64,000 nucleotides of DNA from Heterodontus francisci (lineage: Eukaryota), in NCBI RefSeq assembly GCF_036365525.1, contig NC_090378.1, forward strand, positions 119,521,593 through 119,585,592. Direction: 5' to 3'. Below, piece after piece: positions 6,228-64,000 of this stretch. The notes beneath the pieces were generated by a model that worked only from the letters and a program-made list of their open reading frames with translations, did not search any database and had not been told where the DNA came from. The position numbers and the translations under genes are program-made. The number at the start of each line of letters is the position of its first letter. The stretch's first letter is position 1.

Positions 6228-6255
6228 GGTTTTTGTAAGGCTCTGTCTCACTGTG
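6228..6255 (-). other. V(D)J recombination signal sequence, 12-bp spacer
   Basis: Minus strand CACAGTG (6255-6249), AGACAGAGCCTT (12 bp), ACAAAAACC (6236-6228). Consensus heptamer and nonamer directly after the V coding end. Confidence 0.98.
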
Positions 6256-6557
6256 GATAGACCAGCTTTTAGCTTGCTGACAGTAATAATCTGCGACATC
6301 CTCATTCTGTACATTACTGATTGTCAGAGTGAATTTGAGGTTCTGTTGACTGCCGGTGAATCGTTCGGATGTTCCTGTGTATCGAGTTGTTGCATAATAG
6401 ATCAGGAGAGTGGGTTTCTGACCGTCTCGCTGCTGATACCAAGCTACATACTTGCTCACGGACTGGCTGGCCGTACAGGTGATCGTTGCGGTCTGTCCCA
6501 GTGTCACTGACAGTGCCGGTGGAGACTGGGTCATGATGATGGTGTCTCCACTGATAC
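6256..6557 (-). CDS. IGKV: Ig light-chain V exon, kappa-type (shark type III/NS4-like), unrearranged
   Basis: Acceptor TATTACCCCTCAG. Translates [101 protein letters not shown], with conserved Cys, WYQQ, LLIY and DYYC. A 12-RSS on V fits kappa polarity. Confidence 0.95.
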
Positions 6558-6743
6558 CTGAGGGGTAATAGAGAAACAGAGTGAAGTAAGAACTGTCACA
6601 GAAAGACCCTGTAAAATGAGATATTATTAGAGACAGTGACCGCTCCTCATGTTTCAGCATTTTCTCTCCAATCACAAGTCAGTAGAATTGGACTGAAACA
6701 AACAGCAGGAAAATATTAACCGTGGAAGGAGAGAGATTTGTAC

Positions 6744-18114: not shown

Positions 18115-18345
18115 CCTTGACCACCCTGTGAGGTCACTGAACTTCTCGCGACACTGCTGTCAGGTCCTCAGGTCCAGACTCCAGGAATTGACCTCCCTGG
18201 TCATCGCTCCCATTCTCTTCTGAGAGTTTTGCTTTGAGGGCCTCCTGGCTTCTTGTGCAAACATTGATTCTCTCCTCCTTTGTACCTCCTCTATTAATGT
18301 CTCCAGTGTCACATCGGGAAACTTGGGAGCCCTCTCTCTGCTCTC
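18115..18345 (-). pseudogene. Myb/SANT-like DNA-binding domain remnant (Harbinger accessory-gene type)
   Basis: Manual translation RERAPKFPDVTLETLIEEVQRRRESMF...REVNSWSLDLRT*QQCREKFSDL, with an internal stop. Confidence 0.65.
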
Positions 18346-18349
18346 CAGC

Positions 18350-20453
18350 CTGTGTTTTCAGGTACATCACACTTCACAGTCCAGTCTGTGTACTCAAGTA
18401 GATCACACTTCACAGTCCAGTCTGTGTACTCAGATACATCACACTTCACAATCCAGTCTGTTTACTCAAGTAGATCACACTTCACAGTCCAGTCTGTGTA
18501 CTCAGATACATCACACTTCACAATCCAGTCTGTGTACTCAGGAACATCACACTTCACAATCCAGTCTGTGTACTCAGATACATCACACTTCACAATCCAG
18601 TCTGTGTACTCAGATACATCACACTTCACAATCCAGTCTGTGTACTCAGGAACATCACACTTCACAATCCAGTCTGTGTACTCAGATACATCACACTTCA
18701 CAATCCAGTCTGTGTACTCAAGTAGATCACACTTCACAATCCAGTCTGTGTACTCAAGTAGATCACACTTCACAGTCCAGTCTGTGTACTCAAGTAGATC
18801 ACACTTCACAGTCCAGTCTGTGTACTCAGATACATCACACTTCACAATCCAGTCTGTTTACTCAAGTAGATCACACTTCACAGTCCAGTCTGTGTACTCA
18901 GATACATCACACTTCACAATCCAGTCTGTGTACTCAGGAACATCACACTTCACAATCCAGTCTGTGTACTCAGATACATCACACTTCACAATCCAGTCTG
19001 TGTACTCAGATACATCACACTTCACAATCCAGTCTGTGTACTCAGGAACATCACACTTCACAATCCAGTCTGTGTACTCAGATACATCACACTTCACAAT
19101 CCAGTCTGTGTACTCAAGTAGATCACACTTCACAATCCAGTCTGTGTACTCAGGTACATCACACTTCACAATCCAGTCTGTGTACTCAGATACATCACAC
19201 TTCACAATCCAGTCTGTGTACTCAGATACATCACACTTCACAATCCAGTCTGTGTACTCAGGAACATCACACTTCACAATCCAGTCTGTGTACTCAGATA
19301 CATCACACTTCACAATCCAGTCTGTGTACTCAAGTAGATCACACTTCACAGTCCAGTCTGTGTACTCAGGTACATCACACTTCACAATCCAGTCTGTGTA
19401 CTCAAGTAGATCACACTTCACAATCCAGTCTGTGTACTCAGGTACATCACACTTCACAATCCAGTCTGTGTACTCAGATACATCACACTTCACAATCCAG
19501 TCTGTGTACTCAGATACATCACACTTCACAATCCAGTCTGTGTACTCAACTAGATCACACTTCACAATCCAGTCTGTGTACTCAGGTACATCACACTTCA
19601 CAATCCAGTCTGTGTACTCAGATACATCACACTTCACAATCCAGTCTGTGTACTCAGGAACATCACACTTCACAATCCAATCTGTGTACTCAGGTACATC
19701 ACACTTCACAATCCAGTCTGTGTACTCAGGTACATCACACTTCACAATCCAAACTGTGTCCTCAAGTAGATCACACTTCACAATCCAGTCTGTGTACTCA
19801 GGTACATCACACTTCACAGTCCAGTCTGTGTACTCAGGTACATCACACTTCACAATCCAGTCTGTGTACTCAGGTACATCACACTTCACAATCCAATCTA
19901 TGTACTCAGGAACATCACAATTCACAATCCGGTCTGCATACTCAGGAACATCACACTTCACCATCCAGTCTGTGTACTCAGGTACATCACACTTCACAAT
20001 CCAGTCTGTGTTCTCAGGAACATCACACTTCACAATCCAGTCTGTGTACTCAGGTACATCACACTTCACAGTCCAGTCTGTGTACTCAGGTACATCACAC
20101 TTCACAGTCCAGTCTGTGTACTCAGGTACATCACACTTCACAATCCAGTCTGTGTACTCAGGTACATCACACTTCACAGTCCAGTCTGTGTACTCAGGTA
20201 CATCACACTTCACAGTCCAGTCTGTGTACTCAGGTACATCACACTTCACAGTCCAGTCTGTGTACTCAGGTCCATCACACTTCACAGTCCAGTCTGTGTA
20301 CTCAGGTACATCACACTTCACAGTTGAGTCTGTGTACTCAGGTACATCACACTTCACAATCCAGTCTGTGTACTCAGGTACATCACACTTCACAGTCCAG
20401 TCTGTGTACTCAGGTACATCACACTTCACAATCCAGTCTGTGTACTCAGGTAC
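18350..20453. repeat. 36-bp minisatellite, block 1 (about 58 units)
   Basis: Unit GGTACATCACACTTCACAATCCAGTCTGTGTACTCA with variants. Confidence 0.97.
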
Positions 20454-21832
20454 TTTTTTTTTTTATTTCCAAAATATACTTTATTCATAAAAATCTGTAA
20501 AAATTACATTGCCAAACAGTTTCCAAACTGCACCAAAAAATACAAACATTGCAAGGGAGATCAGTTTCCTTTAATACTGTCATGAGTTTCTTCCCAACCC
20601 CTCCGTTTCACAATTGTCATGTCAATTACAGTTTTACATTTACAACAATTGAGAATATTAACGATACAGTTCGAGGGGTTTCCCATGGATCCAGCCCCTC
20701 AGTCCAGCTTGGTGGGGGAACCTTACACTGTGGTCTTTCCCCATTGAGCCTTTGCTGCGGCTGCCCCAAGCTTTAGTGCGTCCCTCAGCACGTAGTCCTG
20801 GACCTTGGAATGTGCCAGTCTGCAACATTCGGTGGTGGACAACTCTTTGCGCTGGAAGACCAGCAAGTTTCGGGCAGACCAAAGGGCGTCTTTCACCGAA
20901 TTGATAGTCCTCCAGCAGCAGTTGATGTTTGTCTCGGTGTGCGTCCCTGGGAACAGCCCGTAGAGCACAGACTCCTGTGTTACAGAGCTGCTTGGGATGA
21001 ACCTTGACAAAAACCACTGCATCTCTTTCCACACCTGCTTTGCAAAGGCACATTCCAGGAGGAGGTGGGCGACCGTCTCTTCCCCACCACAGCCAACGCG
21101 GGGGCACTGTGCGGAGGGGGCGAGACTTCGGGTGTGCATGAAGGATCTGACGGGGAGGGCCCTTCTCACCACCAGCCAAGCTACGTCTTGGTGCTTGTTT
21201 GAAAGTTCTGGTGATGAGGCATTCCGCCAAATGACTTTGACGGTCTGCTCGGGGAACCATCCGACAGGATCCACCGTTTCCTTTTCCCGTAGGGCCTTGA
21301 GGACATTCCGTGAAGACCACTGCCTGATGGACCGGTGGTCAAAGGTGTTTTTCCGCAGAAACTGCTCCACGAAGGATAGGTGGTATGGCGCCGCCCAACT
21401 GCATGGTGCGTTCCGCGGCAATGTGACCAGGCCCATCCTTCGCAACACCGGGGACAGATAGAACCTCAGCACGTAGTGACACTTGGAGTTTGCGTACTGG
21501 GGATCTACACATAGCTTGATGCAGCCGCACACGAAGGTGGTCATCAGGATGAGGGCCACGTTGGGTACATTTTTCCCGCCCATGTCCAGAGATTTGAACA
21601 TCGTGTCCCTCCGGACCCGGTCCATTTTAGATCCCCAGACGAAGCGGAAAATGGCTCGGGTGACTGCCACGGCGCAGGAGTGGGATATGGGCCAGACCTG
21701 CGCCACGTAGAGCAACAACGTGAGCGCCTCGCACCTGATGACCAGGTTCTTACCCACAATGGAGAGAGATCGCTGCCCCCACATGCCCAACTTTTGTCGT
21801 ACCTTGGCTACTCGCTCCTCCCATGTTTTGGT
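20454..21832 (-). mobile_element. 5'-truncated Tx1/L1-clade non-LTR retrotransposon
   Basis: Uninterrupted 355-aa ORF2 C-terminus (20723-21790) with WGQRSLSIVGK, GGKNVPNV and zinc finger CPRVGCGGEETVAHLLLEC. Has a 3' UTR and poly(A) (T-run at 20454). Confidence 0.9.
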
Positions 21833-22799
21833 ACTTCACAGTTGAGTCTGTGTACTCAGGTACATCACACTTCACAGTCCAGTCTGTGTACTCAGGTACA
21901 TCACACTTCACAGTCCAGTCTGTGTACTCAGGTACATCACACTTCACAATCCAGTCTGTGTACTCAGATACATCACACTTCACAATCCAGTCTGTGTACT
22001 CAGATACATCACACTTCACAATCCAGTCTGTGTACTCAACTAGATCACACTTCACAATCCAGTCTGTGTACTCAGGTACATCACACTTCACAATCCAGTC
22101 TGTGTACTCAGATACATCACACTTCACAATCCAGTCTGTGTACTCAGGAACATCACACTTCACAATCCAATCTGTGTACTCAGGTACATCACACTTCACA
22201 ATCCAGTCTGTGTACTCAGGTACATCACACGTCACAGTCCAGTCTGTGTACTCAGGTACATCACACTTCACAATCCAAACTGTGTCCTCAAGTAGATCAC
22301 ACTTCACAATCCAGTCTGTGTACTCAGGTACATCACACTTCACAGTCCAGTCTGTGTACTCAGGTACATCACACTTCACAATCCAGTCTGTGTACTCAGG
22401 TACATCACACTTCACAATCCAATCTATGTACTCAGGAACATCACAATTCACAATCCGGTCTGCATACTCAGGAACATCACACTTCACAATCCAGTCTGTG
22501 TACTCAGGTACATCACACTTCACAATCCAGTCTGTGTACTCAGGTACATCACACTTCACAGTCCAGTCTGTGTACTCAGGTACATCACACTTCACAGTCC
22601 AGTCTGTGTACTCAGGTCCATCACACTTCACAGTCCAGTCTGTGTACTCAGGTACATCACACTTCACAGTTGAGTCTGTGTACTCAGGTACATCACACTT
22701 CACAATCCAGTCTGTGTACTCAGGTACATCACACTTCACAGTCCAGTCTGTGTACTCAGGTACATCACACTTCACAATCCAGTCTGTGTACTCAGGTAC
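21833..22799. repeat. 36-bp minisatellite, block 2 (about 27 units)
   Basis: Same unit. Variant order copies the end of block 1. Confidence 0.97.
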
Positions 22800-23190
22800 T
22801 TTTTTTTTTTATTTCCAAAATATACTTTATTCATAAAAATCTGTAAAAATTACATTGCCAAACAGTTTCCAAACTGCACCAAAAAATACAAACATTGCAA
22901 GGGAGATCAGTTTCCTTCAATACTGTCATGAGTTTCTTCCCAACCCCTCCGTTTCACAATTGTCATGTCAATTACAGTTTTACATTTACAACAATTCAGA
23001 ATATTAACGATACAGTTCGAGGGGTTTCCCATGGATCCAGCCCCTCAGTCCAGCTTGGTGGGGGAACCTTACACTGTGGTCTTTCCCCATTGAGCCTTTG
23101 CTGCGGCTGCCCCAAGCTTTAGTGCGTCCCTCAGCACGTAGTCCTGGACCTTGGAATGTGCCAGTCTGCAACATTCGGTGGTGGTGGACA
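22800..23190 (-). mobile_element. Second, shorter copy of the Tx1-like 3' end
   Basis: Near-identical to 20454-20840 (two substitutions and an extra GGT seen). Followed by a final satellite part-unit, TCACACTTCACAATCCAGT. Confidence 0.9.
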
Positions 23191-23789
23191 TCACACTTCA
23201 CAATCCAGTATGAATACAACATGCAGTGTTTCACTCACAAGTCTTATCCTAATTCTACTTTATCTACAGCTACATTCCATTCATACTGCCACTGAGTCAG
23301 AGGACATCAAAGATACATAAAAGTGATTTCAGAATAACCACATGGAGCCAGCAAAGGCTCTTTATTCCTCTCTATCCCTTCAAATCATCCTGTTCCAATG
23401 GTTACATTGCCCTCTGAAGCTCCATGATTATATTGCTGTTACAAATTCCTCTGATGATTTGAATAATATAAACACAAGTGAGCAGATTAACATTTCCAGA
23501 GTATCAGAGACATGGATGAGTGAATTGCAGTACAAGTAGAGGCCACCCCAATGTCTGAGTGCTCCAGTCGAAGCTCAGACTGTGGTATTGTAATCTGAGC
23601 TTGCTGCCACACAGGCTCAGACTGCTGCCATCATGGCTGTGGATGCCAGTGCTCAAAGGGGCTTGCAGGCTCACCCAGCAGCCCAGCACCAAGTCCAGCT
23701 TGATGGAGTACTGCTTCAAAAGATACCTAACTCGGAGAATTGGGGATTGAGGGAATTCAGTGCAATGACTGAAGAGATTCTATTCTGAT

Positions 23790-26700
23790 CTTTGACAAAA
23801 CACGGAGCAGTAGAGTGATGGAGCGGGAGACAGCGAGACCTGGTGATCAGCTCTAAGTGTTTCTAGATAATAGTCTAGAAAGTAAAACATGGCAGGGAAC
23901 CTCAGCCCTGTGGAATACACATCCTGTGTCATGTGGGAAATCCTGGACACTTCTCATGACCTGGATGACCACATGTACAGGAAGTGTCACCGGTTACAGC
24001 AGCTCGAGCTCTGGGTTTCGGAGTTTGAGCACTGACTGGAGTCACTATGCAGCATCCACGAGGCTGAGAGCTTTCTGGAGGTGGTCACCCTACAGTTTAA
24101 AAATGTGCTGGCAGAGGGGGAATGGGTGAGGGCCAGAAGAACAAGGAGGACCAGGCATGCAGGACAGTGATCCCATGAGTGCATCTCACTCTCCAACTGG
24201 TATTCAGTTCTGAATACTGGTCAGAGTGATGGTTCCACTGGGGAGTGCAGGCAGAGCCAAGTCCACAGCACCATGGGTGACTCAGCTGTACAGGGAGGGA
24301 GGAAGAAGAGTGGAAGAGCAATAGTGGGAGGGGATTCGATAGTGAGGAGAATAGACAGGCACTTCTGTGACTGCAGAGGTGTCTCCATGATGGTATGTTG
24401 CCTCCCTGGTGCCAGGGACAAGGATATCACTGAGCGGCTGCAGGACATTCTGACGGGGGAGAGTGAACAGCCAGAGGTCGTGGTCCATATTGGCACCAAT
24501 GACAGAGGCAGAAGGAGGGATGAGGTTCTGAAGCAGAATTTAGGCAGCTTGGAGGGAGATTGAAAAGCAGAACCTCAAAAGTATTAATCTCCAGATTACT
24601 CCCAGTGCCACGTATTAGTGATTACAGAAATAGGAAGATAGAACTGATGAATACATAGAGCTGGAGAGATTATGCAGGAGGGAGGGCTTTAGATTCCTGA
24701 GGCTTTGGGACTGCTTCTGGAGGAGCTGGACCCTGTACAAGACGGACTGTTTGCAAATCAACAGGGCCGGGACCAATATCATCGCAGTGAGTTTTACTCG
24801 TGCTGTTGGGGAGAGTTTAAACTAGCTGAGCACAGGGATGGGAACCTGAGAGTAGATTCAGAAGAGAGAGAAGAAAAGTTCGAAATGGAAGGCAGTAAAT
24901 TAGTCAGCGTCTTTGGAAGGCAGAGAAAACGAAGGTTAGAAAATAAACAAGGGAGTTTGACAGAGCTAAATAATATATCCTTCAATACAAGTTGAGGAAA
25001 TAAGGCATATGAGCTGACAGCACAGATTGACACATGGCAGTATGATATTTTAGCTATTACTGAGACATGGCTGAAAGAAGGGCAGGAATGGCAGCTCAAC
25101 ATTCCTAATTACAGGGTTTTCAGACGAGACAGAGATGGGGATATCTCAGGAGGGGGTGAGTTGCAATATTGATTAAAGAAACAATTATAGCTGTGAGGAG
25201 AGAAGATATGGTAGAAGGATAAACAAATGTTGCCATATGGGTTGAACTGAAGAACAAAACAGGGGCAATCACACTACTGGGAGTGTGCTATAGACCCTGA
25301 AACTGTTAGAAGGAGAGAGAAGAGCAAATATGTGGACAAATTTCAGAACTGCAAAAACAATTAAACAGTGGGGGATTTCAACTGCCCCAATATTAACTGG
25401 GGTAGAGTTTATGTGAAAGACTCAGTGGTCACAGAATTCTTCAAATGCATTGAGGAGAACATTGTTATCCAGTATGTATCAAGTCCAAAAAGAGGGATTG
25501 TGAGACTGGACAAAATTTTAGGGAATGAAGCTGGGCAGGTGGAAGGGGGATCGGACGGGGCGCACTTTGATGGAAGTGATCATAATTCAGTTTGATTTAG
25601 AATAGTTATGGAAAAGGACAAAGACAGACCAGGAATAAAAGTTCTCAACTGGGGAAAGCTAATTTTACTAAGCTGAAATGTGATTTAGCTATATGGGATT
25701 GGAAACAGTTACTTGAAAGTAAATCAGTGCTGGATCAGTGGGAGGCATTCAAGGAAGAGATAGTGAGGGTTCAGAGCAAGTTTAGTTTAGAGAGAGATAC
25801 AGCACTGAAACAGGCCCTTCGGCCCACCAAGTCTGTGCCGACCATCAACCACCCATTTATACTAATCCTACACTAATCCCATATTCCTACCACATCCCCA
25901 CCTGTCCCTATATATTTCCCTACCACCTACCTATACTAGGGGCAATTTATAATGGCCAATTAACCTATCAACCTGCAAGTCTTTGGCATGTGGGAGGAAA
26001 CCGGAGCACCCGGAGGAAACCCACGCTGACACAGGGAGAACTTGCAAACTCCGCACAGGCAGTACCCAGAATCGAACCCAGGTCCCTGGAGCTGTGAGGC
26101 TGCGGTGCTAACCACTGCGCCACTGTGCCGCCCTTAAAGAAATATGTTCCCTTAAAGAAAAAGGGTGGGACTAACAAATCCAGAGTCTTGTGGATGTCAA
26201 GGGGCTGAAAGGAGAGGATAAAGTAAAACAGGAAGATTAATGACAGATACCAAGGCAGAAAATCGAGAGGAGTATAAAAAGTGTAGGGGTGAAATTAAAA
26301 AGGAAATTAGGAAAGCAAAGAGAGGGCATGAAAAAAATTGGCAAGTCAAATAAAATCAAGAAAACTAAAGGTTGTTTTATAAATACAGAAAGGCAGGATT
26401 ATAATGAAAGAAAGAGTAGAGCCTATTTGGGTCCACCAGGGTAACCTGTGGATGAAGGAGGAGGATTCGCATTTATTTTCACTAAAGAGAGGGATGATAC
26501 AGAAATTGCAATCAGGGAGGAGGAGTGTGCAATGTTAGATAAAACTAATATAATGAGATGAGATATTAAGGGATTTAACATGTTTGAAAGTGGTTAAATC
26601 ACCAAGCCCAGATGAAATGCATCCTAGGCTGTTAAATGAAGCAAGAGAAGAAACAGCAGAGGCTCTGACCATCATTTTCCAATATTCTCTGTCTACAGGT

Positions 26701-27225
26701 GTGGTGCCAGAGGACTGGAGGACAGTTCACATTGTACCATTGTTTAAAACGGGAGAAAGGAATAGACCGAGTAATTATAGGCCAGTCAGCCTACCTCCGG
26801 TGGTGGGAAAAATATTGGAAAAAGCTCTGAGGGACAGGATAAATCTTCATTTAGTCATACATGGATTAGTCAAAGATATTCAGCATGGATTTGTTAAGGG
26901 AAGGTTGTGTCTGACTAACGTGATTGAATTTTTTGAAGAGGAAACAAGGAGGGTCGATGAGGGTAGTGCATTTGATGTAGTCTATATGGATTATACCTAG
27001 GTTTATGATAAAGTCCCAGATGACAGACTGGTCATGAAAGAAAAAGCCCAGGGGACCAAGGCAAAGTGACAAGATGGATTCAAAATTGGCTCAGAGGCAG
27101 GAAACAAAGGATAATGGTTGATGGGTGTTTTTGTGACTGGAAGACTGTTTCCAAATGGGTTCTGCAGGGTTCAGTACCAGGTCCCTTGCTTTTTGCAGGA
27201 TATATCAATGATTTGGACTTCAATG
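23790..27225 (+). mobile_element. CR1 LINE with esterase ORF1, endonuclease and partial RT (decayed, 3' part missing)
   Basis: ORF1 GDSIVRRIDR...CLPGA...VVHIGTND (SGNH esterase); EN GDFNCPNINW and SDHNSV; RT KSPSPDEMHP...NYRPVSL...QHGFVKGR. Confidence 0.9.
25780..26133 (-). mobile_element. tRNA-derived V-SINE (HE1-like) inserted in CR1
   Basis: Minus strand A box TGGCGCAGTGG and B box GGTTCGATTCT; V-domain GGGTTTCCTCCGGGTGCTCCGGTTTCCTCCCAC; CR1-type tail ending in CTAAA repeats. Confidence 0.85.
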
Positions 27226-27663
27226 TAAAGGCCTGTGACCCGACCGGGACCCGACGACATGTGTTGGGTTCAGGTCGGGTTGGGCCCCTCTTCCAGGTCC
27301 GGCTTTCGGGCTCAGGTCGGGCCGGGTTCGGGTCCGTGTCCGGGTCAGGCCGGACACAGATGGTTATTGCTCTGCTGGTCAGTATTAAAATTAAATAAAA
27401 CGTACCTGAGCTGGGAGTGCGGGACGTCAAGCAGGGAAACTGAGTGTGTGCAGTTAGTGAGTGACGTCTCCATGATGCCATCACACACATGCTGCAGCTT
27501 CCTGGACGTTCCGAGTCGGAAGGTAAGTAAAGGGATAGTCGAGTCGGGCTCGGGTCGGGCTTGGGGCAAAATCGGAGGGACTGGGGCCGGGTCGGGCTCG
27601 GGTCCACTGTGGTTCCGTCTGGTTTGGGTTGGGTTCTTTTTCCCTAACCTGAGCAGGTCTTTA
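27226..27663. mobile_element. hAT-type MITE
   Basis: TIRs TAAAGGCCTG / CAGGTCTTTA; 8-bp TSD CTTCAATG / CTTCAATC; many subterminal CGGGT/TCGGG motifs. Confidence 0.8.
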
Positions 27664-27957
27664 CTTCAATCAGGCACAGAAATCAAATACCTGTACATTG
27701 AAACTTTACTGCCTTAATGCAGACAGTTCTATACAAAAGCATTGCCAGATTCCAAAATGCTGTTAACATAAAAATATACCTTATCTTCATGTGACCGGCT
27801 GACAAAATTTATGGCCTGACACTCCTGTGATGCATCTTGGACAATTTTATGATGTTGATAAAAGCGAGATAAATAAAGTTATTATTACTGTTACTACCTC
27901 TGACAGAACCTTTTTCAAATGTAATTCTTTGTGATCAAAATATAAATGGGATCTAAT

Positions 27958-28052
27958 GAAAGATCACAGACATGAAACACTAACTCAGTTTCTCTCTCCA
28001 GAGATGCTGCCAGACTTCCTGAGTATTTTCAGCATTTTCTGTTTTTATTTCA
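27958..28052 (+). mobile_element. Short Penelope-associated terminal repeat fragment
   Basis: Matches the reverse complement of 41960-42050 and 40935-41025 (CTCTCTCCA.AGATGCTGCC.GAC). Confidence 0.6.
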
Positions 28053-28216
28053 ATAAGTTGCATTACAGGCCCAGGATGGAATCGAGCAGGTGATTCTAAT
28101 AAATTGCAAAAACTATTCATTATATCGGGCCATTGTTGAGTGACCAACTACCAAGTGCTACCTGAATCAGCAGTAAACTCTTTCTGTACAGCGTAGCAAC
28201 TTTAGTATTCTTTCAG

Positions 28217-28350
28217 TGTTTTTGCTGATGAATCCCTTTCCCTCATGTCGGCTATTTCACGGGACAGATGTCACAGACAGCACTCCAAGCAAGAGCAGTG
28301 ACCAGCCGAAATCCCCTCAGAGCGGGAGCTCGGGGGAGAACATGGACTTG
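28217..28350 (+). CDS. Orphan gene candidate, exon A
   Basis: Acceptor TATTCTTTCAG| or ATG at 28228; MNPFPSCRLFHGTDVTDSTPSKSSDQPKSPQSGSSGENMDL; donor TTG|GTCAGT, phase 0. Confidence 0.45.
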
Positions 28351-29758
28351 GTCAGTGATTTGATTTATGTGAAATACAAGCTTGGCTTGTTTTGTGTAAT
28401 ATTTTATATCCTTTAAATATGTTCGAAGGAAGCTTTGCGTGTTAAAACATATTGTCACACTAATAACCAAAATCTTTAATTTTAATTCTTTAAAGATCAT
28501 TAATGACTTCATGGTTGACCATAAAGTTAGCACCTGGGCTGTGACTGTAGCAGCTTAAAGTGCATAGTCCATCAAAAACGGTATTTTGGGATCAAATCTA
28601 GTAAACTGCTGCCCAAATCGCAACAACGTAATACACCTCCCTGCATGCACACCAGATTCCCTCTTGAATGCAGGCTTTGTTTTTTCTATAGTTGACCTTT
28701 AGTTGCTATTTAGCATCTTCTCTACAGAAGGGTGGTGTTTCCTGGAAGTTTATCAGTAAGCTGGTATCATTGGTTTTAGTAGAAAGTGTCTCTCACCTGT
28801 TCCCTGGAAATTTCAGCAATTCAGTCTTTTAGCAGTTCAGTTAACCATTATTATATCTGTTCTGCATCTTTAGGGTCCTATTTCTGCTTTAAAATACCCT
28901 CCCTATTTATGGATTCTCCTCTTTTGGTCCTTATACACCCCCTCTTCAGTGCCTTTATTGCTTCTTCATTACCAATATTCTGCACTCACCTGGTAAGAGC
29001 TGCATTAGAATGAACTGAGTGATTTGACTCCTAATTTCCTTACTTCTAACTCTCTCTATTTCTAGTTCTTGCTGTCTCTTTCTGTCTCTCGAGCTCTTGC
29101 CTGCATGTGCGCTGGCTGGCTTTCTCATTCAGGCAAGCTCACCAATACTTTTTTGCACTCATGCTCTTTCTTGACTTGTTCAAGCCCAGCAGCACCACAG
29201 GATATGTTTTAACTTCATCCTATATAGGTGGATGCTGCAAAGTTACAATGAGTAACTGGGTGAGGCAGGCAAGTAAATATCTGCATAGATATAGGAGTGT
29301 TCAAATACTGAGTGTTCAACTGAAAAGCAAAGGGATTATTTGATAACTTAGAGTTAAAACAGTAGCATAAGTATTCAAATGTAATGGCCGTGATGAATTT
29401 GTGCATGCCATGTGCTAACAATCTAACTGGGTAATTTACAAACGTGCTAAATGATGAACTGTCAATGTTGGCTTATCAACCAGTGGATGTGAGATGGCGG
29501 CATCATTCTTCGGAGCAGACTTTGGCTGAGCGAGGGAGGAAAACCAATGGAAAGATTTCACAGTTTAACTATCATGGAATCATGCATTACTTCCCCTTCT
29601 CAAGACCAAGCTGTTGTATCCACAATGCCTCCATTTTTTTTGCGGGGTGGGGTGTGGTAAGTGCCAGGGAGTTTCATGGCACAATAGATGTAACTGGGAA
29701 GAGGGAACTTTCTGAGATATAATCATTGACACACTTTATCAAAAATAAATTTCTGCAG

Positions 29759-30082
29759 TCATCTGAAGTATCGTCTCATTCACCCATTCGCCCTGTGGAC
29801 ACTGTCTCCTCGGGAGTATCATCCTCGCTGAGTAGTGTGTCGTCATCATCATCATCATCGTCCCACACTCCCAAGGTTCCCAGGCGTTCCATCTTCGCAG
29901 CCGTCTGCAGTTGGATTCAGAAGTGTTCTGTCAGAACAACTTCCGGCAATTGGGCTCTCAAGTGTTCGGCCTCAGTGACTGCCTGCATTTCAAAAGTGGC
30001 ATTTCCTGGGTGCAGGCAGAAGAATGGCCACGATAACATCGGAATCAGGCAAGAGGATGACGATCTGTACCAAAGCACTTTG
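29759..30082 (+). CDS. Orphan gene candidate, exon B (Ser-rich, 108 codons)
   Basis: Acceptor TTTCTGCAG|, donor TTG|GTAAGT, phase 0/0, fully open: SSEVSSHSP...QEDDDLYQSTL. Confidence 0.6.
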
Positions 30083-31009
30083 GTAAGTACATGGATTGTT
30101 TCTATTAGTCATGTTCATGCTGCTCAATGGCTGTTGCTTCGGTCAATATATTCACAGACATTTAAAAAAAGTTCCTCTTGTATTTAAGAAAAAAATTACC
30201 TCAGACCATTTGTTGCCATCTAGTCATATTGAAGATGGCGGTGTGGCTGCTATTAGTGCTAATTCGCAATGTCTAATTTCCACATTGTTGATATCTTTTC
30301 TGTCTCTTGAGTATTTTGGCCATCATTTCAACTTTCTTTTGGAATGTTGCAATACTGTTTGAGTTTTGCTGACATTACTCATTAAATGTACAGGCCACAC
30401 CAAGGTGTGGCACACTCATACCCTTATTCAGGGAATGAGCTGAAATCTATTAATTTCTGATTTCTCCCCATCCTTGTACCTGATTGCAACAATGTCCCAA
30501 GCAGGTACAGATTGAACGCTGGGTTCTACAATTAGTGTGTAGCTAACCACAGGCACCTCCTGTTAGTTAATTGAGTAATAATAGCAGAGTCCTTGAACAG
30601 TTTTTCTTCCTTGGCCTTGGCTCACGTGAAGTTTCAAAGATGGGAAGAGAGCAAATGAAAAATAGGAGTGGAGAAAGGTACAGTCCAAAATAGAATTGTC
30701 ACCATGTGACTGATTCAAAAATGACTATTCAAATCTAAACAATATTGGTCACATGGGTAACACGCAGGCCATATAACTTAATGACCCACTCGTATATTTT
30801 ATGTTGGGAAAAATTATTTCAAGCCTCTTTGATTGAAAACATGGAATCAGTCCATTGCAAGATATGAAATGGGAATTTTTAATACAGCAGAGTGGGTGTA
30901 TAAAGGCAACGAATGGTCAGAATTTTCATCTTATTACTGATCTAATCAGCCTTTACAGCCTGTATCAAATCTTCACATCACCTTCTCTGCTGAAAGGAGA
31001 ACAACCACA

Positions 31010-31280
31010 GCTTTGAATTAGAATTTCAGGTGAGAAAGGAGGAATGAGAGGAGAGGGAGAGAGAGAGTGCTTTCCAGAGGGAAAAGTTTGAGAAGGAATT
31101 ACAAGCACAAAAAGACAGTGAAATCAGACAGATAGAATTGGTGAGGGAAAAATTGTCTTTACGTAGTGGAGAAGCCGCTGGTAATTCAAATGATCCTAGT
31201 CCAGAGACAAGCTGTGATTTCTTACGCTATTCCTGGTTAGTATCCAAATTTGAAGATGATGATATTGAAGCCTTGTCTCA
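31010..31280 (+). mobile_element. Gmr1-like gag fragment
   Basis: Close match to 49850-50110 (AFQREKFEKELQAQKD...KFEDDDIEA). Confidence 0.7.
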
Positions 31281-31432
31281 CATACTTTGAGAAGAGGTTG
31301 CTGAGACAGAACACTTGCGAACCTTGCCTTTTAGAAAGGTTTTGCACTTTTTATAAAATATATTCATGAAATGTAATTAATTTTCTATTTCTTCATGTTA
31401 CTGACCAAGATAGGACACCTGTTATTTTGCAG

Positions 31433-31511
31433 AGAGCCTCATCCAATCAGACCCTGGAAACAGAACCTCCAGAGAATTCTCAGTTCACACAGACCATTTC
31501 ACAAGATCGAG
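31433..31511 (+). CDS. Orphan gene candidate, exon C
   Basis: Acceptor TTATTTTGCAG|, donor GAG|GTGAGG, phase 0/1: RASSNQTLETEPPENSQFTQTISQDR. Confidence 0.55.
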
Positions 31512-32219
31512 GTGAGGGGTGAAAATTGTCTCAATTTGATAAATCTATCCCAAAAGATACATAAACCTCTGCCAGCAGATTTATATTTTCTTCTGATTTC
31601 ACAAAAAGCTGGGAAAATCCAGATTCTTATAATTGAACTAACCCAACTGCACTCAGCAGGATCCAACTTGGAGTCATTTAGCTTCACATTACTCAGTAAC
31701 AAGCTATTTGTCAGCACCTAATGAAAGCATAAAGCCTCCTCCAGTTTAGTGGCTCATGTCAGCTAATCCCTCGAAAAGCTATATTGTGTCATAGGTAAAA
31801 ATCTGGAGTTGATTGTGGATTTAACTAAAAATAATTCAGAATTTATCAGCATTATTCTGGTTTCTTCATTGTAATTCAAATTGATTATTCAACAATGCAT
31901 TAAACATTTTATTTTACTGAAATCAAGAACCATCTTTTTTCAGTTGGCTGCAGAGCACCTTGACGATGAAGCAGGAAAATTCAATGGGGTCCTCAGCACC
32001 TAATGTGCTAATCAGTGACACCCTCCCCACCACCTTTTCTGGTGAAAACCAGAAAAAAGTTGAAGACAGGATCAGCCTTCATGGCTGTGATTCTCTCATG
32101 ATTAAAAATCCTGTCAACTCCCACTGTCCAGATTCCACCAAGCAGAAGGCCTCATTAGGTGAGGATTCCCAGTGCCTGTGGAATGATATTCCAGTCAGAG
32201 TTTTAAAAAATTCTCTGAA

Positions 32220-32690
32220 TACAAGCATCACTGGTAAAGCTGTCATTTATTGTTCATCCCTCATTGCCCTGAGAAGGTGGTGGGACAGGCCCTATCATTG
32301 AGCCGCTGCTGTTTTTTTGATGATGGTGTTTCCCCATTTGTATTAGGTAGGGAATTCCAAGATTCAGACCCAACAATGAAGGAAGAATGACGTTTGTCAA
32401 TGTTTTGCAGTGGTAACTCAATAGCTGTTTAACTGTTGGACCAGAGTAAAAACCCAATTGTTCATTCATGTTCTTTAAGAAAGGAAACCTGATATCCTTA
32501 CCTGGCCTGGCCCATGCATGGTTGACCCTTAACTGCCCTCTAAAGAGGCTTAGCAAGCCACCTAATTCTATCAAACTGTGACGAAAAAGGCAGCCAGTAC
32601 TGATCTTCTCGGGGGGGGGGGGGTAACTAAGGACAGGGAATAAATTCTGGTTGTGCCAGCAATACTCATATCCTGAGAATGGATTTTAAA
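32220..32690. mobile_element. Minus-strand LINE tail fragment (32220-32400) plus decayed plus-strand SINE (32420-32690), both related to the 11792-15049 LINE
   Basis: The SINE core matches the LINE 5' head and the SINE end matches the LINE 3' tail. Confidence 0.65.
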
Positions 32691-32912
32691 ATGTTTTTCT
32701 TTTCAGTTATTGGGCCTATGCAATAATGGTGTAAACCTTCAAACTTTTCACTTGTGGGTTTGTGATACATTCTGAATCCTTGCAACAAATTCTAATCCTA
32801 TTACTCTCAGCCATTCATAATTCTACATCTAGATTATAGTTGGATGCTTTATCCAATCAACACGATAAAAATGTATGTGTAAATACCAATGTACATTTCT
32901 CCTGCTTTTCAG

Positions 32913-33070
32913 AGTTGGTCCGTGCTTGGTACCCTGCGAACCTTGACCTTCTCCTGAGAATTCCAAACACAGACGAACTGGCTTGGCTGCAAACGCAATC
33001 GTGCTCGACACTACCCAGAGCACCCAAAGAGGGAACCTTGATGCATACACTAAGCAGGATTACACTGTGA
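32913..33070 (+). CDS. Orphan gene candidate, exon D (to stop)
   Basis: Acceptor TTTCTCCTGCTTTTCAG|, phase-1 entry, open for 52 codons: ELVRAWYPAN...LSRITL*. Possible donor CAG|GTGTGA at 33091. Confidence 0.5.
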
Positions 33071-33318
33071 GGAGACAAACGTTTTATGCAGGTGTGATCT
33101 ACCACTCAGTAGTGGGATAGCCCTTGAGATCTTTAGCAGACCTTTCCTGCCTTCTCTTATTTTTCCAGTTCTTCAATCTCTTCTGCAGGCACAGAATCAG
33201 ACTTATCTTCAACAAAGGACAACTGCAAGAAATTAGAAAAAAGTTTATGATTGCCATTATGTTCCAATTGTTTTGAATTCATGTTCAGCTTTATATTTTA
33301 CTGTTATTTTGTATACAT

Positions 33319-60969: not shown

Positions 60970-62600
60970 ATTTCGGCCTCCTGAATTCCCCAGCATCATA
61001 GATGCCAGTCTTTAACCAATTTGATTCACTCCACGGGATATCAAGAAATGGCTGCAGGTGCTGGATACTGCAAAGGCTATGGGCCCTGACAACATTCCAG
61101 CAATAGTACTGAAGACCTGAACTCCAGAACTTGCCGCGCCCCTCGGCAAACATTTCCAGTACGGCTACAACACTGGCATCTACCTGGCAATGTGGAAAAT
61201 TGCCCACGTATGTCCTATACACAAAACACAGGACGAGGAACCCGGCCAATTACCATCTCATCAGTCAAGTGACGGAAGGTGTCGTCGGTAGTGCTATCAA
61301 GCGGCACTTGCTTCGAAATAACCTGCTCAGTGATGCTCAGTTTGGGTTCCGCCAGGGCCACTCGGCTCCAGACCTCATTACAGCCTTGGTTCAAACATGG
61401 ACGAAAGAACTGAACACGAGGTGAGGTGAGAGTGACTGCCCTTGACATCAAGGCAGCATTTGACCGAGTATGGCATCAAGGAGCCCTAACAAAACTGAAG
61501 ACAATGGGAATCGGGTGGGGGGAAAGCTCTTAGCTGGTTGGTGTCATACCTAGCATGAAAGAAGATGGTTATTGGATGATCATTTCATCTCAGCTCCATA
61601 ACAAGACTGCAGGAGTTCCTCAGGGTAGTGCTCCATAGAAAATACAGCACAGAACAGGCCCTTCGGCCCACGATGTTGTGCCGATCTCCAGGCCCAACCA
61701 TCTTCAGCTACTTCATCAATGACCTTTCTTCCATCATAAGGTCAGAAGTGGGGATGTTCACTGATGATTGCACAGTGTTCAGTACCATTTGCATCTCCTC
61801 AGGTACTGAAGCAGCCCGTGTCCATATGCAGCAAGACCTGGACAACATCCAGGCTTGGACTGATGTTTAGTGCCAATGTTACTTGCCACTTAAGTGCCAG
61901 GCAATGACCATCTCCAACTATCTCCCTTTGGTGTTCAATGACATTGCCATCACTGAATCTCCCACTATTGACATCCTGGGTTACCATTGACAAAAAACCA
62001 GATCAGCCACATAAATACTGCAGCTACAAGAGCAGGTCAGAGGCAGGGAGTTCTGCGGCGATTAACTGACCTGTCCCCCCAATGCCTGCCCACCAACTAC
62101 AAGGCAGAAGTCAGGAGTGTGATGCAATACTTTCCACTTGCTTGGATGGGAGCAGCTCCAACAACACTCAAGAAGCTCGACACCATCCAGGACAAAGCAA
62201 CCCACTTGACTGGCACCTCATCCACCAACAACAACATTCACCACCGACGCACAGTGTCAGCAAGATGCACTGCAGCAACTCACCAAGGCTCATTTGACAC
62301 ATTCCAAAACTGCAACCTAGAAAGACAAGGGTAGCAGATGCATGGGAACACCACCACCTGCAAATTCTTCTCCAAGATACACACCATCCTGACTTGGAGC
62401 TATATCACCGTTCCTCCACTGTCACTGGGTCAAAACCCTGGAACTCCCTTCCTCACAGCACAGTGGGTGTACCTACACCCCAAAGACTGTAGCATTTCAA
62501 GAAGGAAGCTCACCACCACCTTCTCAAGGGCACTTAGGGATGGGCAATAAATGCTGGCCTAGCCAACGATGCCCACATCCCATGAACGAATAAAAAATAA
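60970..62600 (+). mobile_element. 5'-truncated copy of the tRNA-headed LINE family
   Basis: Colinear with 13440-11792 (KAMGPDNIP, QFGFRQGHS, LDIKAAFD, tail GGGCAATAAATGCTGGCC). Small antisense CR1-tail insert at about 61634-61685. Confidence 0.88.
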
Positions 62601-62690
62601 GTAGAAATTTCCTTCTAACATCCACTGTTATTGGGTGCTGGAAGTTGCCAAGTTGGAACCGGCTCCTCCGTGTTCCTTGACCGTGACCGC

Positions 62691-63009
62691 TACCCAACCC
62701 GAACCCAACCAACCTGATGACATGTCGGGGTCGGGTTGGGTTGCTCTTCCGAGTCCGGCATTCGGACTCGGGCTGGGTCGGACACTGACAGCCAGGATGC
62801 CAAGGTGGGGTATGTGCATTTGGACTCCGCACTGGTCTGCACTGTCGATCTCATCCAAGGTAGAGCACAACCTCTTTAATATAAACAACTTTATTCCGGT
62901 GGTCGGGTCGGGCGCGGGAAAAAATCGAAGGACTCGGGTTGTGCTCGGGTCAGATGTAGTTCTGTTTGGCTCGAGTCGGGTTTCATTTGCAGACACAAGC
63001 AGGCCTTTA
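62691..63009. mobile_element. hAT-type MITE related to 27226-27663
   Basis: Right TIR CAGGCCTTTA; flanks GTGACCGC / GCGACCGC (8-bp TSD, 7/8); left TIR largely lost; same TCGGGT motifs. Confidence 0.7.
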
Positions 63010-64000
63010 GCGACCGCAGGCTTTCTGACGGGACTGAAAATGCACCAAGTATTTCATTGTGCTGAACCAACAGCCTTTGTCTGTACTCTGCCCCATCAAA
63101 GTCCTCATCTGAGTCCTCTGCAACAGAACTCTTATGTGACCTTGCCCGACAGCGCATTGGTACTTGTGCTATCCTTTCCCTTGTGGCTGGTGTCTCACCA
63201 CATGCAGATCTCACCTCTGATCAATATCTGAGTTAGTGGCTGTGAATGTGATATTGAGTGACAATATTTCATTGTCATCAGTTTCCTGCTGCTCTTGGAC
63301 TTGACACGCCCATAACATTGTCTGGCCAGGTGACCGTTCTTGGGTAGCTGAAAGGAGAAAGGCACAAGGGTAGGAGATTGAGAAGGAAAGCAAGTGGTGC
63401 ATATTGACACTATCTGTGACTTGTAAATCAGAAGAGATTGTGGGATGAGGGGGAAGTGGGATGTCAGAAGGTGGATTAAGTGGGAACATCTGCTATTATT
63501 TCAGCCCCATCTCTGGCCATGATATTAGTTACGGCTACTCCAATAATTGCAAGCACTGTCTCCTCCATCAAGGTGGGGACAAACAGCCGAGCCTACACCC
63601 GCCGGTTAGCTGCTGCAGTCTAGTTATACCACCACCTTGTCATGCAAGAGAGAGGGAAGTGTTTCAGTGAGTGTGGTGCAATGTACCTGTCATTGATGAA
63701 TACCTGGCAGTGTGTGCAAGCTGTCAGGTGTGAATGTGAGGCTTGAAACTGTGTGTGAGGGTGAGGTGAAGTTTATGAAAGTAGGAGTCCTTGATCGAGA
63801 ATTTTGTTACGTGAGTGAAGGGTGGTGGTGAATGGAGGAGTGTGTGAGGCTTGTTTTGAACGCTGGACTTTGTAGCATGACTGTTTTAAAAACTGGTTTT
63901 AATGTTGTTTAAAATGGAATTCGAGAAATCAGGTGACCTTACATCAACTCCACTTAAAGACAAGGGTCTTGGTTACCAGGACAACAAAGAACCCAGATCA

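What the first reader, a model, noticed from the sequence alone, without database searches (positions are those of the whole stretch)
28217..33091. Hidden four-exon orphan gene candidate in the TE-poor island
Seen: exons 28217/28228-28350, 29759-30082, 31433-31511 and 32913-33070 have canonical AG/GT sites and matching phases (0,0,1). They splice into one 227-aa frame from ATG 28228: Ser-rich N-half, a Cys/Trp-containing middle (IFAAVCSWIQKCS...WALKCSASVTAC), an acidic Tyr motif EDDDLYQST, and C-terminus ELVRAWYP...SRITL*. It is invisible in the ORF track and I recognise no family. Inference: a lineage-specific, largely disordered protein or recent pseudogene about 21 kb from an Ig cluster. 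Upstream exons may be missing.
Basis: partly seen in the sequence, partly recalled or inferred. Interest (0 to 1): 0.7.

Follow-up and report, generated by a model that had tools for sequence, protein, structure and literature searches.

The report
Truncated RGL1 copy in shark antibody array
This is not an orphan gene but the last four exons of the signalling gene RGL1, cut off from its catalytic exons and likely a pseudogene; it is one of 23 copies mixed among a shark's antibody light-chain genes, 11 of which keep open catalytic exons and are predicted to activate Ral without Ras control.

Summary
The four exons are real and splice into 227 codons, but they are not an orphan. They are the last four coding exons of RGL1 (RalGDS-like 1; parent at C8:98.4 Mb), with the same introns, phases and stop codon. 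Source names identify the horn shark. The window copy is 5'-truncated at 27665 beside a MITE-like element and lacks all REM/CDC25 exons. Its first acceptor is dead, its ATG is former intron, and its Ras-association (RA) domain is wrecked. It is one of 23 copies in a 7-Mb array interleaved with 27 kappa-type V genes: 9 window-type (each head-to-head with a V, 21-35 kb away), 3 broken, and 11 that keep the GEF exons without stop or frameshift. RNA contigs show all three junctions, but with alleles of sister copies; the main form retains intron 1. Window-type copies vary neutrally (pN/pS 1.08). RefSeq already models a near-identical twin. Verdict: likely an unprocessed partial pseudogene. What remains of interest is the sister set: an apparently Heterodontus-specific amplification of RA-dead RalGEFs inside an Ig light-chain array, whose expression and activity are untested.

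The parts
27225..27664 (.). GC-rich MITE-like element bounded by an 11-nt inverted repeat; the RGL1-derived segment starts right after it
   Evidence: (pair I14)
27665..33318 (+). Duplicated 3' part of RGL1 with its introns (the 'TE-poor island'); aligned blocks mostly 78-88% identical to the parent gene, 95-96% to a GEF-bearing sister
28228..28250 (+). ATG and following codons taken from ancestral intron; the natural acceptor AG at 28249-28250 reads CG; weak start context
28251..28350 (+). Remnant of the RGL1 exon for residues 659-722; ends at a cryptic in-phase donor because a ~1.07-kb deletion removed the exon's end and natural donor; second ATG at 28342
   Evidence: junction in X1 and X4 with a non-window allele
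28351..29758 (+). Intron 1, covered end to end by unspliced contigs in X1/X2; if retained, the frame from 28228 stops at 28414 after 62 codons
29759..30082 (+). RGL1 exon for residues 723-808 (Ser-rich linker and start of RA domain), net +69 nt by in-frame indels; natural splice sites
31397..31432 (+). First 12 codons of the ancestral exon, now intronic because the natural acceptor AG reads AT; removes part of the RA core
31433..31511 (+). Rest of the RGL1 exon for residues 808-846, entered at a cryptic in-frame acceptor
32913..33070 (+). Last RGL1 coding exon (846-906), same stop position; 24-nt in-frame deletion after 32918 found in 2 of 23 array copies
23188..27224 (.). Repeat-rich upstream flank covered by long contigs in X1/X2 at depth like that of intron 1; possible long 5' leader (strand and continuity not shown by contigs)
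6255..6600 (-).

Best explanation
The four exons are the 3' end of a duplicated RGL1 gene that has lost its catalytic exons and first splice acceptor, and it is likely a pseudogene that makes no working protein. Shown: RGL1 was duplicated at the DNA level in the Heterodontus lineage; the duplicate lost RA-domain integrity through in-frame changes; it was amplified with kappa-type V genes into a mirrored 7-Mb array; one sub-lineage (9 copies, with the window's) was cut at a MITE-like element and lost the acceptor of its first remaining exon. Inferred: these copies are transcribed by read-through from the new 5' flank, mostly keep intron 1, splice introns 2 and 3, and would be poorly translated or degraded by nonsense-mediated decay; the open frame is inherited from GEF-bearing ancestors and has not yet had time to break.
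For: Exon-by-exon match to parent RGL1 with introns, phases and stop. No REM/CDC25 exon in the window; homology begins at 27665. Dead acceptor and shared new flank in 9 of 9 window-type copies. Variation among those 9 in the four exons is neutral: 24 non-synonymous, 7 synonymous, pN/pS 1.08; 2 of 9 have a 1-nt deletion in exon 1, and 3 of 3 related tail copies have stops. Contigs cover intron 1 at depth 51-81 against about 2-12 in most bins of introns 2-3 in X1/X2, and an X3 contig runs from inside intron 1 into the 30082/31433 junction. 101 ATGs lie between 23188 and 28228. RA: no Pfam hit at E<=10 for the 235-aa paralog while the parent scores 1.3e-12; 15 of 31 invariant RA sites changed, the same share as variable sites.
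Against: 7 of 9 window-type copies, the window's included, still have a fully open frame, and RefSeq lists six 197-235-aa protein sequences for such copies. All three junctions exist in RNA contigs, two of them also in a second organism. The family is young (98-100% identity among window-type copies), so neutrality tests have little power (31 variants). No contig could be assigned to the window copy itself, so its own transcription is inferred from sisters. Contigs give no strand, start or true level, and the runs are only guessed to be RNA.
Confidence: 0.75

Rival explanations
1. Window-type copies are young protein-coding genes: a MITE-derived first exon or promoter feeds ATG 28228 or ATG 28342, giving a 190-235-aa mostly disordered protein with a new role, as with primate core-duplicon genes.
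For: Frame open in 7 of 9; RefSeq models including P0010, identical to the window model but for the 8-aa deletion; spliced exon 1/2 junction at depth 18 in X1; tail indels against the parent are all multiples of 3 while 25% of intron indels are (about 7 indels, p about 6e-5); tail second codon positions diverged more than introns (41 of 202 vs 0.142, p=0.011); ATG 28342 has a strong start context.
Against: The in-frame history predates truncation and is shared with GEF-bearing copies, where a frameshift would hit the whole protein. pN/pS is 1.08 after truncation. The 17 dispersed copies lack exon 1 altogether and several are broken. The main contigs retain intron 1.
Confidence: 0.15
2. The transcript works as a non-coding RNA or as a by-product of the neighbouring Ig cluster's regulatory elements (divergent transcription that opens chromatin, or an RNA that modulates RGL1 or GEF-bearing sisters).
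For: Fixed head-to-head position 21-35 kb from a V in 9 of 9; depth differs about tenfold between runs of one sample code (X1/X2 vs X3).
Against: The pairing is explained by co-duplication alone; tissue and strand are not on record; no conservation test supports an RNA function.
Confidence: 0.08
3. A true orphan gene born from non-coding DNA.
For: No Pfam hit for the paralog model; the first 8 codons do come from intron.
Against: BLASTP E=2e-39 to RGL1 and shared exon-intron structure; weak match to solved RGL/RalGDS RA domains (E 7.6e-7).
Confidence: 0.01

Closest known systems
[quoted passage not shown]
   Same: Last four coding exons, intron positions, phases and stop; 38% identity over residues 659-906.
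   Different: The window copy has no REM or CDC25 domain, a dead first acceptor, two cryptic splice sites and an RA domain below Pfam detection.
RefSeq tail-only 'RalGDS-like 1' models of Heterodontus francisci (XP_067894083.1 = P0010, XP_067894065.1 = P0003 and four more sequences)
   Same: Same four-exon model and same ATG; P0010 differs from the window model by the 8-aa deletion.
   Different: Automatic annotation names them RGL1 without noting truncation; no 227-aa member was among the 6 in the cluster.
Human RGL4 (Rgr)
   Same: A lineage-restricted RalGDS-family duplicate (PMC3141262, passages: present in primates, missing in rodents) lying beside IGLL1 and VPREB3 at 22q11.23 (PMC7827884, passages). 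It is not among the four RA-bearing RalGEFs named in PMC10576006 (passages). This resembles the 11 GEF-bearing sisters.
   Different: Single copy, separate origin (the shark copies group with horn shark RGL1, 99% bootstrap); the window copy itself has no GEF domain. The shared Ig light-chain neighbourhood may be coincidence.
Primate core-duplicon gene families (TBC1D3, NPIP, GOLGA; PMC6920530, abstract and section list seen)
   Same: Transcribed, fast-changing gene piece expanded along one chromosome within segmental duplications and also dispersed.
   Different: Shark lineage; embedded in an Ig cluster array; no function or translation shown.

Membership tests
RalGDS/RGL family (descent) | Sequence and exon structure derived from RGL1 | tested here: met
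   a GEF-bearing sister groups with horn shark RGL1 (99% on GEF, 89% on tail)
RalGDS/RGL family (functional member, window copy) | REM (PF00618) and CDC25 (PF00617) domains | tested here: not met
   No tblastn hit for P0001 residues 1-568 in the window; GEF exons in the next 100 kb belong to a separate, opposite-strand broken copy
RalGDS/RGL family (functional member, window copy) | Intact RA domain (PF00788) | tested here: not met
   No Pfam hit on the 235-aa paralog; 12-codon and further deletions; 30 duplicate-lineage changes vs 0 in the parent lineage among 70 columns (sister copy)
Unprocessed partial pseudogene | Introns retained (DNA-level copy) and a functional parent elsewhere | tested here: met
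Unprocessed partial pseudogene | Disabling lesions | tested here: met
   5' truncation and dead acceptor; no stop or frameshift in the window's four exons
Unprocessed partial pseudogene | Neutral coding-site variation | tested here: inconclusive
   pN/pS 1.08 on 31 variants: fits, low power
Unprocessed partial pseudogene | No functional protein made | not testable with these tools
   needs ribosome profiling or proteomics
RA-less RalGEF (RGL4-like), 11 sister copies | Open REM+CDC25 frame under constraint | tested here: met
   9 of 11 give 16 exons and 701-703 open codons; 0 frameshifts vs 7.7 expected, p=5e-4; invariant GEF sites spared, p=3e-8
RA-less RalGEF (RGL4-like), 11 sister copies | Expression of GEF exons and nucleotide exchange on Ral | not tested
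Orphan / de novo gene | No homolog outside the lineage | tested here: not met

The most novel reading that the evidence does not exclude
Horn sharks carry an undescribed family of about 11 Ras-uncoupled RalGEFs: RGL1 duplicates that kept REM and CDC25 under purifying selection while the Ras-binding domain was dismantled by in-frame changes, and that were amplified inside the kappa light-chain array together with transcribed tail-only copies such as the window's. This would be an independent parallel of human RGL4 beside IGLL1/VPREB3 and could tie Ras-independent Ral signalling to Ig-locus or germline expression.
Probability: 0.35. Interest if true: 0.62.

Novelty: new member of a known kind. 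Interest (0 to 1): 0.33.

Why it matters
For the window copy itself: little; it is a truncated duplicate that automatic annotation misnames as RGL1. The context matters more. Shark Ig clusters are usually pictured as repeated V-J-C units (recalled); here the repeated unit also carries three kinds of RGL1 derivative, which gives markers for dating and ordering the cluster duplications. If the GEF-bearing sisters are expressed and active, they are a natural experiment in cutting a Ras effector loose from Ras, in a gene system that a survey of mammals found almost fixed in copy number (PMC3141262, passages).

Tried and rejected
Pfam on the tail-only models: no hit; this is why the family was missed, not evidence of orphanhood. 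AlphaFold2 on P0003 without alignment: mean pLDDT 35, no RA fold; uninformative, no fold search run. Run search listed no holder on record as RNA; GT..AG joints show the contigs are spliced RNA. No joint for the window's 24-nt-deleted form among the 12 joints listed: contigs drop rare variants and may be from another individual, so this is no evidence of silence. First guess that the parent lay at C8:98.03 Mb was wrong: that is another partial copy with a stop; the parent is at 98.38-98.47 Mb. The idea that the GEF exons 45-110 kb downstream are this copy's inverted 5' half was rejected: they have their own last exon and form a separate, broken copy. Pairwise dN/dS of 0.21 for the GEF part is flattered by high synonymous divergence, so constraint is argued from invariant sites and missing frameshifts instead. 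A regex search found no J or C segment within 20 kb beyond the window's left end; not pursued. Paper searches for a description of this family gave nothing relevant in the listings; subscription papers are not covered. Three look-ups of earlier scan findings were empty. Other sharks were tested only at protein level: among the best 120 of 1966 hits, 10 other chondrichthyan species gave RGL1 orthologs only.
Full report
1. Observation. The four segments are at the stated places, the three introns are GT..AG with phases 0, 0, 1, and the join gives 227 codons and a stop. RNA contigs support each junction in the gene family: 30082/31433 in X1-X3, 31511/32913 in X1-X4, and 28350/29759 in X1 (depth 18) and X4 (depth 4). 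The four runs are at most two samples of two organisms and are only guessed to be RNA; the spliced joints show that they are.

2. Identity. A search with exon 2 returned 5 proteins of 864 candidates, all horn shark, four named RalGDS-like 1; three carry RasGEF_N and RasGEF. A search with the C-terminal part found the 906-aa parent P0007 with an RA domain. The window model aligns to its residues 659-906 (38% identity, E=2e-39). The parent lies at C8:98.38-98.47 Mb, about 21 Mb away. DNA alignments show the same exons, flanking introns and stop position.

3. Lesions of the window copy. Homology to parent and sisters starts at 27665, directly after an element with 11-nt inverted ends; no REM or CDC25 exon is in the window. 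The natural acceptor before 28251 reads CG, and ATG 28228 is intron in the parent. A deletion of about 1.07 kb removed the end of that exon; a cryptic in-phase donor is used. The acceptor before 31397 reads AT and a cryptic one 36 nt on drops 12 RA residues. A 24-nt deletion in the last exon is found in 2 of 23 array copies. Ras binds the RA domain through its first two strands and first helix (PMC10576006, passages); these are the parts deleted or most changed here.

4. The array. Exon 2 matched 43 places among 80 scored: 23 on C8 between 117.1 and 124.4 Mb, 19 rows at 17 loci on other contigs (some may be assembly duplicates), and one at C8:98.03 Mb. The window's V segment matched 28 places on C8 at 81-100% identity, 27 of them within 117.0-124.6 Mb. 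Strands mirror around 121 Mb and the order V, V, tail copy, broken copy, GEF copy recurs. All 23 were examined: 11 carry GEF exons, 9 share the window's 5' flank and dead acceptor, 3 have stops and frameshifts. All 9 window-type copies have an opposite-strand V 21-35 kb upstream; about 3% of random positions do, but the copies are not independent. The 17 dispersed copies have no match to exon 1.

5. Transcription. In X1 and X2, long contigs cover the region from 23188 through intron 1 at depth about 50-100, against about 2-12 in most bins of introns 2 and 3. An X3 contig runs from inside intron 1 into the exon 2/3 junction. Of 12 differences from the window that I picked from those contigs, copies at 118.59 and 124.42 Mb carry 9 and the copy at 117.74 Mb carries 8 (the window scores 0 by construction). 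An X2 joint carries alleles of the 122.07/123.76 Mb pair. So window-type copies are transcribed, but no contig is assignable to the window's own copy. With intron 1 kept, the frame from 28228 stops after 62 codons, and 101 ATGs precede it from 23188. That such RNA is poorly translated and open to nonsense-mediated decay is inference from general knowledge.

6. Selection. Among the 9 window-type copies the four exons show 24 non-synonymous and 7 synonymous variants, pN/pS 1.08. The 11 GEF-bearing sisters differ: 9 give all 16 exons tested with AG/GT ends and 701-703 open codons; in two the first tested exon was not recovered, and one of these has a lost acceptor; none has a stop or frameshift, against 7.7 frameshifts expected from intron indels (p=5e-4). 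Their start codon was not located. Against 14 vertebrate RGL1 proteins, one sister changed 25 of 209 invariant GEF sites but 67 of 190 variable ones (p=3e-8), and 15 of 31 invariant RA sites against 19 of 39 variable ones (p=1). It groups with horn shark RGL1 (99%), so the duplication is younger than the split from the other sharks sampled. Against this: dN/dS of 0.21 for the GEF part rests on fourfold-site divergence of 0.54 where introns show 0.15, which I cannot explain; measured against introns, constraint among sisters is modest (24 of 1119 sites vs 0.031, p=0.03); 34 residues inside CDC25 are deleted; and the RefSeq models of these copies contain odd extra exons, which suggests thin RNA support. 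The tail has dN/dS 0.92 against the parent with 69 vs 6 lineage-assigned changes: relaxed, possibly positively selected.

7. Mechanism, committed. Shown: DNA duplication of RGL1, in-frame ruin of the RA domain, co-amplification with V segments, 5' truncation of the window's sub-lineage, splicing of sister copies. Inferred: read-through transcription from the new flank, intron 1 retention as the main form, no working protein; the open frame is a recent inheritance. Confidence 0.75. A young coding gene (0.15) or a functional RNA (0.08) remain possible.

8. Known and new. RefSeq already holds six tail-only protein sequences, one matching the window model but for 8 residues, so the exon structure is not new. 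Four paper searches on this family and locus gave nothing relevant in their listings. Ten other chondrichthyan species gave only RGL1 orthologs among the best 120 hits; a second organism (X4) holds spliced family transcripts. Closest parallels are human RGL4 (PMC3141262 and PMC7827884, passages) and primate core duplicons (PMC6920530, abstract and section list). No supplements were read. Verdict: the finding as stated is ordinary; the sister family deserves a follow-up of its own.

Noticed in passing
G000:C8:120.84-120.91 Mb (L031-L037) and ten further copies in 117.4-124.2 Mb: Eleven GEF-bearing RGL1 duplicates with open frames, in-frame loss of one CDC25 exon and a wrecked RA domain; RefSeq models of them seem mis-spliced.
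   Followed up: yes
parent C8:98.38-98.47 Mb vs copy at C8:120.84-120.91 Mb: Fourfold sites in GEF exons diverged 0.54 against 0.15 in introns (51 of 132, p=1e-12); mostly on the parent or shared stem branch; unexplained.
   Followed up: partly
G000:C8:119.599-119.661 Mb (L061-L067), minus strand: A third, broken RGL1-derived copy type (missing exons, lost acceptor, frameshift in last exon); 11 similar GEF exons listed in the array.
   Followed up: partly
G000:C8:117.0-124.6 Mb: 27 kappa-type V segments in a mirrored array whose strands flip near 121 Mb; one more at 115.7 Mb.
   Followed up: partly
C44, C9, C21, C23, C25, C46, C49, C670, C1696 and small contigs (L011-L029, L091-L100): 17 dispersed copies of the last three exons with introns, 92-95% identical to the window; some are transcribed in X1-X4; how they moved is unknown.
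   Followed up: partly
parent RGL1, L054-L057: A 78-nt exon is repeated about five times in tandem within the REM region of horn shark RGL1; other galeomorph RGL1 proteins are also long.
   Followed up: no
window 27225-27664 and about 62500-63050: GC-rich element with short inverted ends and a splice-donor-like site near 27523; could supply a promoter or first exon to window-type copies.
   Followed up: no
window 18200-22850: Long 33-nt tandem repeat with open frames in several phases, interrupted by a LINE fragment at 20454-21832.
   Followed up: no
G000:C8:98.01-98.06 Mb (L024, L025, L039-L041): Older partial RGL1 copy 0.35 Mb from the parent, opposite strand, with a stop; shares the window's 3' flank out to about window 49300.
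   Followed up: partly
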